In this document: positions 15,001 through 18,000 of the stretch, one piece after another
Numbering within the stretch: position 1 is the stretch's first letter
Layout: the number at the start of each line of letters is the position of its first letter
DNA from: Escherichia coli
GTDB lineage: Bacteria > Pseudomonadota > Gammaproteobacteria > Enterobacterales > Enterobacteriaceae
Strand: one strand, 5' to 3'
NCBI RefSeq assembly: GCF_013122565.1
Contig: NZ_CP053258.1
DNA: 64,000 bases
Program-made: the position numbers

Positions 15001-18000
15001 TGCGCAAAGAGAAACGGGTGACCAGATTACGCACCCGTAAAACAGGTTCGCCATCCACCACCGTTTTCTGCTCGATGGGGGGTCCCTGTTTCGCTGGATG
15101 TTCAAGCGATATCAACGGGAAACGTCGGGGATAATCTAACCCTTTCATCGCACCAAGTTGCGGAACAGCAGCTAACAGCGCACGGGTGTGAGGATGTTGC
15201 GGCGCATGAAAAATCTGTTCGACGGTACCCGTTTCCACCGCCTCGCCCTGATACATCACCAGTACCCGATCGGCAATCTCTGCCACCACGCCCATATCGT
15301 GCGTGATAAAGATAACGCCCATCGACATCTCTTTTTGCAATACTTTGATTAATTGCAGGATCTGCGCCTGAATAGTGACATCCAGCGCGGTGGTTGGCTC
15401 ATCGGCAATCAGCACCGCCGGGCGGCATGACAGCGCCATCGCAATCATCACTCGCTGGCGCATCCCGCCAGAGAGTTGATGCGGATAACGTGAAAGGATG
15501 GTTTGTGCCTCCGGAATGCGTACCTGATCCAGCATCCGCTTCGCCTCGACCATCGCTTCTTCACGACTGGCGTTTTGATGCAGACGAATTGATTCGGCAA
15601 TCTGTTCACCCACAGTAAATACCGGGTTCAGCGATGTCATCGGCTCCTGAAATATCATCGCCATATCCGCACCGCGCACATGGCGCATTTGTGCAGCGCT
15701 CTGCTCGCTAAGTTCAATCACTTCGCGACTGCGCCGCCGCAACAGCATTTGATCGCACTGCACTAAACCGCCCGCCTGTTCCAACAGGCGCATCAATGCC
15801 AGCGCAGTCACTGACTTACCGGAGCCGGATTCGCCAACAATTGCCAGCGTCTCACCGCGTTGCAGGCTAAAAGAGAGATTGCGGACCGCAGCTATTTTCT
15901 GCTGGTCCTGCATAAAGGCAATATTCAGATTTTCAACCGCCAGCACATCACCGGCATCAAGTTCATCACTGTGTGGCAACGGTGTCCCCTTTTTCACGGT
16001 AGATACCGGTGGTTGGCGTATCGCCTGCGTAGCCCCAGGCGCGATACATTCCTTCGGTGTTAAACGGTAGCGCGACATTCCCTTCATGGTCGATAGCGAT
16101 TAAGCCACCGTTACCGCCAAGCGCAGGGAGTTTTTCCATTACTACCCGCTCGCAGGCTTCCGCGAGACTTAATCCGCCGTAATCCATTAACGCGGCGATG
16201 TCATATGCCGCCAGCGAGCGGATGAAGACTTCGCCCGTGCCGGTACAAGAAACCGCCACACTGGCATTATTGGCGTAGCATCCGGCACCCACTAAGGGGC
16301 TATCGCCAACTCGTCCGGGTAATTTATTGGTCATTCCGCCCGTGGACGTGGCTGCCGCCAGATTGCCGTCTAAATCCAACGCCACGGCCCCCACGGTGCC
16401 CATTTTCTGTTTTTCATCCAGTGGCGCACCGCTATGGTCGAGGACTGTTGCCCCTTCCTCGCGCGCTGCCAGTAGTTGTTCATAACGCAAAGGCGTGGAG
16501 AAAATCTCCGGTGAGACGCGCTCCATGCCATGAGCAAACGCAAAATTTTCTGCCCCTTCGCCAATCATCATCACGTGCGCGCTTTGCTCCATCACCAGCC
16601 GGGCGGCAAGAACCGGATTACGCAGATGACTAACGCCCGCCACCGCACCGGCTTTCAGGGTGTTACCATCCATCACACAGGCGTCCAGTTCATGGGTTTC
16701 ATCACGCGTAAAGACAGCGCCAATTCCGGCGTTAAACAGTGGACACTCTTCCAGCAGACGCACCGCTTCCGTCACCACATCCAGTGCACTTTCGCCCGCT
16801 TCCAGCATTTTCTGCCCGGTTTCAACAATGGCAGACAATGCCTCGATGTAGCGTAATTCCTGTTGCAGACTCATCTGTGCGCGGCTAATTGCACCTGCGC
16901 CGCCATGAATTGCAATGACTGCTTTGCCCATAGTATTCGTCCATTAAGGGTGGCTCGCCACTTTTGTTATAAATATCAGAATTTTTATTAATTACTCATT
17001 CAATTTTTGAATATAGAAAGATGGATATGGCATGTAAAGGCAGGAGCCAGCGCTACGCCCGAGGTGGAATACAGTCCGTGGCATTTTTCTGACATAATAG
17101 GCAAATTCGATTTTCCCTCCGCAGGAGTGTTTTCATGGAATTTACCACCGGATTGATGTCGCTCGACACCGCGCTTAATGAGATGCTTTCTCGCGTCACC
17201 CCACTGACCGCCCAGGAAACGCTGCCACTGGTACAGTGTTTTGGACGTATTCTGGCGAGCGATGTCGTTTCGCCACTGGATGTCCCGGGTTTTGATAACT
17301 CCGCTATGGACGGCTACGCGGTGCGTTTAGCCGATATTGCCTCCGGGCAACCGCTGCCCGTTGCCGGTAAATCCTTTGCCGGTCAGCCGTACCATGGTGA
17401 ATGGCCTGCGGGTACCTGCATTCGTATTATGACCGGTGCGCCGGTGCCGGAAGGCTGCGAAGCGGTGGTGATGCAGGAGCAGACTGAACAAACGGACAAT
17501 GGCGTGCGTTTTACTGCTGAAGTGCGTAGCGGGCAAAATATTCGCCGTCGCGGTGAAGATATCTCTGCAGGTGCGGTTGTTTTCCCGGCGGGAACTCGCC
17601 TGACTACCGCAGAGCTGCCAGTAATTGCTTCACTGGGGATTGCCGAAGTTCCGGTGATTCGTAAAGTGCGTGTAGCGCTTTTTTCTACCGGTGATGAACT
17701 CCAGTTGCCCGGTCAGCCGCTGGGCGACGGCCAAATCTACGATACCAACCGTCTCGCCGTACACCTGATGTTAGAACAGTTGGGATGCGAGGTAATCAAC
17801 TTAGGGATTATCCGCGACGATCCACATGCCCTGCGCGCCGCATTTATTGAAGCCGACAGCCAGGCGGATGTGGTGATCAGTTCCGGCGGTGTTTCAGTGG
17901 GTGAAGCGGATTACACCAAAACGATTCTTGAAGAGCTGGGGGAGATCGCCTTCTGGAAGCTGGCGATTAAACCAGGTAAACCGTTCGCGTTCGGTAAACT

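What the first reader, a model, noticed from the sequence alone, without database searches (positions are those of the whole stretch)
15966..15979. gsiA N-terminal codon reads TTG, and the gsiA start overlaps the iaaA stop
The codon at the recognised GsiA N-terminus (..PHSDELDAG) reads TTG in my reading of the text, giving exactly 624 codons to the stop. This is either a TTG initiation codon translationally coupled to iaaA by a 14-bp overlap, or a point difference from an ATG. The upstream in-frame ATG of the ORF track would add 36 residues.
Basis: seen in the sequence. Interest (0 to 1): 0.2.

Follow-up and report, generated by a model that had tools for sequence, protein, structure and literature searches.

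The report
gsiA's annotated TTG start codon
The glutathione-importer gene gsiA starts with the less common codon TTG, 11 bases before the stop of the upstream gene iaaA, exactly as in the E. coli K-12 reference annotation, so this is an ordinary and already recorded feature.

Summary
Both genes lie on the minus strand. TTG is at 15979..15977, the iaaA stop TGA is at 15968..15966, and the overlap is 14 nt. From the TTG to the stop is 1872 nt, which is 623 aa plus the stop. The upstream in-frame ATG at 16087 would add 36 residues.

The TTG is not a point difference from ATG. K-12 MG1655 has the same TTG, and its annotated gsiA (b0829) starts on it. At least 5353 of 5426 complete E. coli genomes keep it. 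No genome matched an ATG or GTG version with the same flanks.

Orthologues carry TTG, GTG or ATG in the same alignment column, behind an AAGGAG/AAGGGG Shine-Dalgarno sequence. In several genera the upstream frame is closed within 3-5 codons. The 108 nt upstream evolve as iaaA coding sequence, not as a gsiA extension. The NCBIfam GsiA model aligns 1-623 end to end.

Translational coupling to iaaA is plausible but not shown. Published in-vitro initiation profiling found no initiation on the isolated gsiA fragment. No conserved RNA structure surrounds the start. A -14 overlap lies outside the range where reinitiation is efficient. The overlap itself looks derived, from a TAA-to-AAA stop loss that lengthened IaaA by 8 residues.

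Verdict: already known, low interest.

The parts
15977..15979 (-). gsiA initiation codon TTG (UUG)
   Evidence: Read directly. It is identical to the annotated K-12 start at 867520. The homologous column holds TTG, GTG or ATG in the aligned orthologues.
15986..15991 (-). Shine-Dalgarno sequence AAGGGG, 6 nt upstream of the TTG, lying inside iaaA codons Lys-Gly
   Evidence: The duplex with the 16S 3' end is -7.8 kcal/mol, against -3.0 or weaker for every alternative start. AAGGAG/AAGGGG is conserved at this place in relatives.
15966..15968 (-). iaaA stop codon TGA
   Evidence: the K-12 annotation ends iaaA at the homologous base.
15966..15979 (-). 14-nt iaaA/gsiA overlap (TTGCCACACAGTGA)
14108..15979 (-). 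gsiA coding sequence, 623 aa plus stop
   Evidence: NCBIfam GsiA equivalog NF007613 scores 1370.6 bits (cut-off 1077) and aligns 1-623 of 623. The exact protein is WP_171460666.1.
15966..16931 (-). iaaA coding sequence, 321 aa plus stop
   Evidence: NCBIfam beta-aspartyl-peptidase equivalog NF007589 scores 707.5 bits and aligns 1-321 of 321.
15980..16087 (-). Rejected 36-codon upstream extension of the gsiA frame (ATG at 16087..16085); it is only the alternative frame of the iaaA 3' end
   Evidence: Against five relatives there are 5 synonymous and 70 non-synonymous changes in this frame, versus 67 and 8 in the iaaA frame. The ATG is absent in E. albertii. The frame is closed within 3-5 codons in Enterobacter, Lelliottia, Cedecea and Siccibacter.
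15992..15994 (-). iaaA codon AAA (Lys), which is a TAA stop codon in Enterobacter, Leclercia, Lelliottia, Superficieibacter and Pseudocitrobacter; its loss created the overlap
   Evidence: Alignment A2 and junction read-out.
17010..17038 (-). The only sigma-70-like promoter match in 15800-17200; it lies upstream of iaaA and is a candidate operon promoter (consensus match only)

Best explanation
gsiA, the ATP-binding subunit of the glutathione ABC importer, is translated from a UUG start codon at 15979..15977 on the minus strand. An AAGGGG Shine-Dalgarno sequence sits 6 nt upstream, inside the last codons of iaaA. Translation yields the 623-residue protein whose N-terminus is fMet-Pro-His-Ser-Asp. 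iaaA and gsiA are read from one operon mRNA in different frames, and iaaA ends 11 nt after the first base of the gsiA start. Shown here: the position of the start, its UUG identity across E. coli, and the falseness of the 36-residue extension. Inferred: ribosomes translating the end of iaaA help gsiA initiation, either by reinitiating after termination at the UGA or by keeping the site unfolded, and the weak UUG keeps GsiA output modest. I put about 0.5 on coupling being important. The overlap is most simply explained as a derived state. An ancestral TAA stop embedded in the Shine-Dalgarno region (gaaTAAgg) became AAA in the Escherichia/Citrobacter lineage, which extended IaaA by 8 residues to the next in-frame stop.
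For: The K-12 MG1655 reference annotates gsiA b0829 from the same TTG with the same 14-nt overlap. RefSeq/PGAP does the same in three other E. coli genomes, including the most divergent sampled. The TTG-centred 37-mer is present in 5353 of 5426 complete genomes, and the ATG and GTG versions gave no match. In orthologues the same alignment column holds TTG (Escherichia, Citrobacter, Superficieibacter, Pseudocitrobacter), GTG (Enterobacter, Lelliottia, Pluralibacter, Siccibacter) or ATG (Leclercia, Cedecea, Enterobacter sp. Ag1 and R1). It is always behind AAGGAG/AAGGGG, and in-frame stops lie 3-5 codons upstream in several genera. Substitutions upstream are synonymous in the iaaA frame and non-synonymous in the extension frame. 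The best SD-antiSD pairing belongs to the TTG. The GsiA equivalog profile aligns 1-623 end to end and leaves residues 1-36 of the long form unaligned. The 623-aa protein is on record and the 659-aa form is absent from about 15 billion sequences. For coupling: junctions in all relatives with iaaA upstream are tight, at -14, -4, -1 or +9 to +11. There is no promoter-like site inside the iaaA 3' end. INRI-seq gave 0 CPM in 5 of 5 replicates at the gsiA start on an isolated -30..+120 transcript that was present at 151 CPM (PMC9825163 Tables S2 and S4).
Against: I found no direct experimental N-terminus or start-site footprint for gsiA. Ribo-RET shows 0 at this site (as tabulated in PMC9825163). 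The N-terminomics tables I could search list iaaA but not gsiA, and those files are truncated. The INRI-seq zero does not establish coupling: about 30% of annotated starts are missed by that assay. Against coupling: the -14 spacing lies outside the -8..+10 range treated as predictive of reinitiation (PMC10666635), and increasing overlap from -4 to -25 strongly lowers coupling (review PMC12548453). No conserved or covarying RNA structure encloses the start, and the single-sequence fold is unremarkable (z = -1.3). Species without iaaA upstream, such as Kosakonia, still start gsiA at an SD plus GTG.
Confidence: 0.92

Rival explanations
1. The true start is the upstream in-frame ATG at 16087, giving a 659-aa GsiA with a 36-residue N-terminal extension. 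On this view the TTG is an internal leucine codon.
For: It is the first ATG of the open frame, so the mechanical ORF list starts there. The frame is open for 40 codons upstream in Escherichia and Citrobacter. The INRI-seq oligo begins at -30, so that assay could not test this ATG.
Against: The ATG has no SD (-1.5 kcal/mol). It is replaced by ACC in E. albertii. The extension frame takes 70 non-synonymous and 5 synonymous changes, while the iaaA frame takes 8 and 67. The frame is closed 3-5 codons upstream of the start in Enterobacter, Lelliottia, Cedecea and Siccibacter. Residues 1-36 lie outside the GsiA profile. The 659-aa sequence is absent from the 15-billion-protein collection.
Confidence: 0.02
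2. The T is a strain-specific mutation or a sequencing error in an ancestral ATG start.
For: ATG is the start at the homologous position in some other genera: Leclercia, Cedecea, and Enterobacter sp. Ag1 and R1.
Against: K-12 and 5353 of 5426 complete E. coli genomes have TTG. The 37-mer carrying ATG or GTG matched no genome. E. albertii and three Citrobacter species also have TTG. In this overlap an ATG would also change IaaA Val (GTT) to Asp (GAT).
Confidence: 0.01
3. Another nearby codon is the start: GTG at 15997 (629 aa) or the internal ATG at 15913 (Met23).
For: Both are in frame, and GTG 15997 lies within the INRI-seq oligo.
Against: GTG 15997 is GCG in the divergent Escherichia locus L002 and in E. 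albertii, and GGG in Citrobacter. Its SD pairing is weak at -3.0 kcal/mol. No alternative start was listed for gsiA in INRI-seq Table S3. Starting at Met23 would delete residues 12-22 ([11 protein letters not shown]). These align to the first profile positions of related ABC ATPase models, for example YejF from profile position 5 and OppD from position 2, and they are conserved across orthologues. That ATG has no SD (+0.4 kcal/mol).
Confidence: 0.03
4. The TTG is the start, but gsiA initiates independently of iaaA through its own SD. On this view the overlap is a neutral by-product of the stop loss and has no coupling role.
For: The SD is strong with ideal spacing. Kosakonia and other species without iaaA upstream use SD plus GTG after an intergenic region. 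The -14 spacing is unfavourable for reinitiation. No sequestering structure is conserved.
Against: INRI-seq gave zero initiation on the isolated fragment despite good transcript abundance. Junctions are tight in every relative with iaaA upstream.
Confidence: 0.45

Closest known systems
E. coli K-12 MG1655 gsiA (b0829, NP_415350.2) and iaaA (b0828) as annotated in NC_000913.3
   Same: Same TTG start, same AAGGGG Shine-Dalgarno sequence, same TGA stop of iaaA, same 14-nt overlap and same 623-aa length. The junction is identical at 210 of 211 nt.
   Different: There are 21 nucleotide and 7 amino-acid differences across gsiA, including D11 versus N11 next to the junction and Y264H. None affects the start.
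Ordinary UUG-initiated E. coli genes (about 3-4% of annotated starts)
   Same: UUG preceded by an SD. UUG is one of the three canonical bacterial start codons; it initiates at 10-100% of AUG in reporters and the N-terminal residue is methionine (bioRxiv 10.1101/063800).
   Different: Nothing distinguishes gsiA from this class except that its start lies inside the upstream gene.
Overlapping co-directional gene pairs coupled by termination-reinitiation (e.g. trpB-trpA, hyfH-hyfI, menD-menH; phage fr coat-lysis with a 34-nt overlap)
   Same: Same strand, same operon, with stop and start within a few codons of each other. An SD lies inside the upstream gene.
   Different: Well-studied coupled pairs mostly have -4 or -1 spacing. 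Here it is -14, where coupling efficiency is reported to fall. Dependence of gsiA translation on iaaA translation has not been measured.
iaaA-gsiA junctions of other Enterobacterales
   Same: The start column and SD are conserved, and iaaA lies immediately upstream.
   Different: The start codon is GTG or ATG in many genera. iaaA ends at a TAA inside the SD (+9 to +11 spacing), or in TGATG/TAATG (-1), or in ATGA (-4), rather than with a -14 overlap.

Membership tests
GsiA, glutathione ABC transporter ATP-binding protein (NCBIfam NF007613 equivalog) | Whole-protein score above the curated cut-off | tested here: met
   1370.6 bits against a cut-off of 1077.
GsiA, glutathione ABC transporter ATP-binding protein (NCBIfam NF007613 equivalog) | End-to-end alignment, with the family N-terminus coinciding with the proposed start | tested here: met
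   Residues 1-623 align to profile positions 1-623 of 623. In the 659-aa form the match is 37-659.
GsiA, glutathione ABC transporter ATP-binding protein (NCBIfam NF007613 equivalog) | Operon context iaaA-gsiA-gsiB-gsiC-gsiD | tested here: met
   The 12-kb stretch around the gene is collinear with E. coli genomes annotated with moeA, iaaA, gsiA, gsiB and pdeI. The K-12 gene order is shown.
Genuine bacterial UUG start codon | NTG triplet with a Shine-Dalgarno sequence 5-9 nt upstream | tested here: met
   AAGGGG with a 6-nt spacer and -7.8 kcal/mol pairing, the best of five in-frame candidates.
Genuine bacterial UUG start codon | The start position is conserved in orthologues while codon identity varies only among start codons | tested here: met
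   TTG, GTG or ATG occupy one alignment column in the 15 aligned genomes (16 rows, one a K-12 duplicate locus), never another codon.
Genuine bacterial UUG start codon | No selectively maintained coding sequence upstream in the same frame | tested here: met
   5 synonymous and 70 non-synonymous changes in the extension frame, and in-frame stops 3-5 codons upstream in several genera.
Genuine bacterial UUG start codon | Experimentally determined N-terminus or initiation footprint | tested here: inconclusive
   INRI-seq and Ribo-RET both give 0 at this site. gsiA is not found in the searchable, truncated N-terminomics tables. The Ribo-RET supplement, the Li 2014 paper and the Suzuki 2005 paper are not held.
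Translationally coupled gene pair (termination-reinitiation or unfolding) | Co-directional genes on one transcript, with no internal promoter or terminator between them | tested here: inconclusive
   The genes overlap, so there is no spacer. The only promoter-like match is upstream of iaaA. These are consensus scans only; no transcript data were examined.
Translationally coupled gene pair (termination-reinitiation or unfolding) | Stop-start spacing in the range predictive of reinitiation (-8 to +10 nt in Huber et al. 2023) | tested here: not met
   The spacing is -14. The range and the fall of efficiency with longer overlaps come from PMC10666635 and PMC12548453.
Translationally coupled gene pair (termination-reinitiation or unfolding) | Inhibitory RNA structure around the downstream start that upstream translation would open | tested here: not met
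   The consensus fold of 16 junctions is -2.17 kcal/mol with 0 compensatory pairs. The single-sequence z-score is -1.3.
Translationally coupled gene pair (termination-reinitiation or unfolding) | Downstream translation depends on upstream translation | not testable with these tools
   This needs reporter fusions with premature stops in iaaA. The only hint is the absence of initiation on the isolated fragment in INRI-seq.

The most novel reading that the evidence does not exclude
gsiA initiation at the UUG may be essentially unable to occur on its own, as the zero signal in INRI-seq hints, and may depend on ribosomes finishing iaaA. In that case the lineage-specific stop loss in iaaA (TAA to AAA, +8 residues) converted an SD-embedded-stop junction (+9 to +11) into a -14 overlap and retuned the IaaA:GsiA ratio in Escherichia and Citrobacter. 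This would be a natural example of coupling across an unusually long overlap with a non-AUG start.
Probability: 0.2. Interest if true: 0.2.

Novelty: already known. Interest (0 to 1): 0.05.

Why it matters
It matters little. The result confirms that the mechanical longest-ORF call (659 aa) is wrong here and that the reference 623-aa TTG-start model is right. That is useful only as a sanity check for automated annotation of overlapping genes. The side observations could serve as a small test case for how overlap length and non-AUG starts affect translational coupling. These are the derived stop loss that created the overlap and the lack of detectable stand-alone initiation in a published in-vitro assay.

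Tried and rejected
- RNA structure as the basis of coupling. The single-sequence fold suggests a 10-bp stem closing a loop that holds the SD and the TTG, but z is only -1.3. The 16-sequence consensus fold shows no conserved or covarying helix. Rejected as unsupported.
- Experimental start-site evidence. The Ribo-RET preprint has no supplements held. TRAINSPOTTER tables list the iaaA N-terminus but not gsiA, and the files are truncated. Li et al. 2014 and Suzuki et al. 2005 are not held. Full-text searches for 'gsiA + start codon', 'iaaA + gsiA + operon', 'yliA + ybiK' and the N-terminal peptide string gave nothing relevant.
- Internal promoter for gsiA inside iaaA. No consensus match was found. 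This is weak evidence only.
- The 72 complete E. coli genomes that carry the locus but did not match the 37-mer were not resolved base by base. They must differ somewhere in its central part. None carries ATG or GTG in the otherwise identical context.
- Salmonella was not among the 80 loci returned and was not pursued.

Full report
**Observation.**
iaaA and gsiA lie on the minus strand of the window. In the iaaA frame the text reads ...TAC CGT GAA AAA GGG GAC ACC GTT GCC ACA CAG TGA, with the stop at 15968..15966. One base out of phase it reads ...CCG TTG CCA CAC AGT GAT GAA CTT GAT..., which is L/M-P-H-S-D-E-L-D, with the TTG at 15979..15977. The two genes therefore share 14 nt (15966-15979). 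From the TTG to the stop codon ending at 14108 is 1872 nt, i.e. 623 aa plus the stop. The mechanical ORF begins at ATG 16087 and is 659 aa, 36 residues longer. Only the strand was left unstated.

**Is the T real, or a change from ATG?**
- K-12 MG1655 (NC_000913.3) annotates iaaA at 866568..867533 and gsiA (b0829) at 867520..869391. This is the same 14-nt overlap and the same 1872-nt length.
- The K-12 sequence at 867520 is TTG. The 211 nt around the junction differ from the window at one base only, in gsiA codon 11.
- RefSeq/PGAP annotation does the same in strain FDAARGOS_497 and in two of the most divergent E. coli sampled.
- A 37-nt query centred on the TTG matched 5353 of 5426 complete E. 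coli genomes. Megablast needs an exact 28-nt word, so any change in the central triplet would prevent a hit.
- The same 37-mer carrying ATG or GTG matched no genome.
- The exact 623-aa protein of the window is on record as E. coli GsiA (WP_171460666.1). The 659-aa form is absent from a collection of about 15 billion proteins.
- The 'point difference from ATG' branch is therefore refuted.

**Is this TTG the start?**
I fetched 80 loci encoding GsiA relatives, taken from a collection that holds one genome per species, and read the junction in the closest 35.
- The column homologous to the TTG holds one of three codons:
  - TTG in a divergent Escherichia, E. albertii, three Citrobacter, Superficieibacter and Pseudocitrobacter.
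  - GTG in Enterobacter, Lelliottia, Pluralibacter, Siccibacter and an Enterobacteriaceae MAG.
  - ATG in Leclercia, Cedecea, and Enterobacter sp. Ag1 and R1.
- In these genomes it is preceded by AAGGAG/AAGGGG and followed by Pro-His/Gln.
- An internal leucine codon would not be confined to start-capable triplets while switching among Leu, Val and Met.
- In Enterobacter sp. MGH 24, Lelliottia, Cedecea, Enterobacter sp. Ag1 and Siccibacter the gsiA frame is closed by a stop 3-5 codons upstream. No long extension is possible there.
- Within Escherichia and Citrobacter the frame is open, but the 108 nt upstream evolve as iaaA. Summed over five comparisons there are 67 synonymous and 8 non-synonymous changes in the iaaA frame, against 5 and 70 in the extension frame. 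E. albertii has ACC where the window has the ATG.
- SD-antiSD pairing is -7.8 kcal/mol with a 6-nt spacer for the TTG. It is -1.5, +0.2, -3.0 and +0.4 kcal/mol for ATG 16087, ATG 16078, GTG 15997 and ATG 15913.
- The NCBIfam GsiA equivalog aligns residues 1-623 to profile positions 1-623. It leaves residues 1-36 of the long form outside.
- Models of related ABC ATPases begin to align at residues 12-13. A start downstream at Met23 would therefore truncate the first nucleotide-binding domain.

**Experimental evidence.**
I found none that positively maps the GsiA N-terminus.
- In the INRI-seq study, a synthetic transcript spanning -30..+120 around each annotated K-12 start was translated in vitro with initiation arrested. 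The gsiA start (867520) gave 0 CPM in all five replicates, and the tabulated in-vivo Ribo-RET value is also 0.
- The gsiA transcript was present in that pool at 151 CPM, and no alternative start was listed for gsiA (PMC9825163 Tables S2-S4, S6).
- That assay confirms only about 70% of annotated starts, so a zero is not evidence against the start.
- It is the only hint that this UUG initiates poorly when detached from iaaA.
- An N-terminomics data set lists the IaaA N-terminus but not GsiA in the truncated files I could search.

**How it probably works.**
UUG is one of the three canonical bacterial start codons. It accounts for about 3-4% of annotated starts, initiates at 10-100% of AUG in reporters, and is decoded as formyl-methionine (bioRxiv 10.1101/063800). 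The SD lies inside iaaA codons Lys-Gly.

Ribosomes finishing iaaA terminate 11 nt downstream of the first base of the gsiA start. This could promote gsiA initiation by reinitiation or by keeping the site single-stranded.

In favour of coupling:
- Every relative with iaaA upstream has a tight junction: -14; +9 to +11 with the TAA inside the SD; -1 as TGATG or TAATG; or -4 as ATGA.
- No promoter-like match lies inside the iaaA 3' end. The only match is upstream of iaaA at 17038..17010.

Against coupling:
- Reinitiation is reported to be efficient between about -8 and +10, and to fall as the overlap grows from -4 to -25 (PMC10666635, PMC12548453).
- No conserved structure encloses the start.
- The single-sequence fold is not exceptional.
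- Species without iaaA upstream still use an SD plus GTG at the same place.

I therefore rate the TTG start as near-certain and functional coupling at about even odds.

**Origin of the overlap.**
In Enterobacter, Leclercia, Lelliottia, Superficieibacter, Pseudocitrobacter, Phytobacter and Siccibacter, iaaA ends ...Tyr-Arg/Gln-Glu-TAA, with the TAA immediately before the SD G-run (gaaTAAgg). In Escherichia and Citrobacter that triplet is AAA (window 15994..15992), and IaaA runs on for 8 residues (KGDTVATQ) to the TGA. By parsimony this is a stop loss in the Escherichia/Citrobacter lineage. The TTG is older than the overlap, because Superficieibacter and Pseudocitrobacter combine the TAA with TTG. 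This polarity is an inference from the taxa sampled. Salmonella was not among the loci returned.

**Comparison with what is known, and verdict.**
The feature is identical to the K-12 reference annotation and to RefSeq annotation of E. coli in general. It belongs to the ordinary class of SD-led UUG starts. It resembles coupled overlapping gene pairs but fails the usual spacing criterion, and it lacks any test of dependence. It is already known, and interest is low. The most novel reading still open is obligatory coupling across a derived -14 overlap with a UUG start. Even that would be a modest addition to the translational-coupling literature.

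Noticed in passing
window 15188..15190 (-), gsiA codon 264: The window's GsiA has His at residue 264 (QHPHTRALL, first 'HPY' motif). K-12 and all 80 fetched relatives have Tyr (81 of 81). The exact protein is on record from a single contig only. This is either a strain-specific change at an invariant residue or a sequencing error.
   Followed up: partly
window 15966..15994 (-), iaaA 3' end: IaaA of Escherichia and Citrobacter carries 8 extra C-terminal residues (KGDTVATQ) because a TAA stop present in Enterobacter, Leclercia, Lelliottia, Superficieibacter and others is AAA here. This stop loss created the 14-nt overlap with gsiA.
   Followed up: yes
window 9000..21000: The best match among 5426 complete E. 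coli genomes is only 98.7% identical over 12 kb, so the source strain is not closely represented in that set. GsiA and IaaA differ from K-12 by 7 and 6 residues, with 21 and 17 nucleotide changes. That is a fairly high non-synonymous share.
   Followed up: partly
K-12 867520 (homologous to window 15979): Published INRI-seq tables give 0 CPM at the gsiA start in 5 of 5 replicates, and near zero for iaaA (four replicates 0, one 6.4 CPM). The gsiB, gsiC and gsiD starts are detected. The gsiA synthetic transcript was present in the pool at 151 CPM.
   Followed up: partly
E. coli complete-genome collection: Five of the iaaA-gsiA matches lie on records typed as plasmids, one genome has two copies, and one genome of 5426 lacks the locus.
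   Followed up: no
window 15800..17200: The consensus scan found 5 terminator-like hairpins against 1.2 expected from shuffles. All lie inside coding sequence, and one at 15967..15984 on the plus strand is antisense to the junction. They are probably chance or compositional.
   Followed up: no
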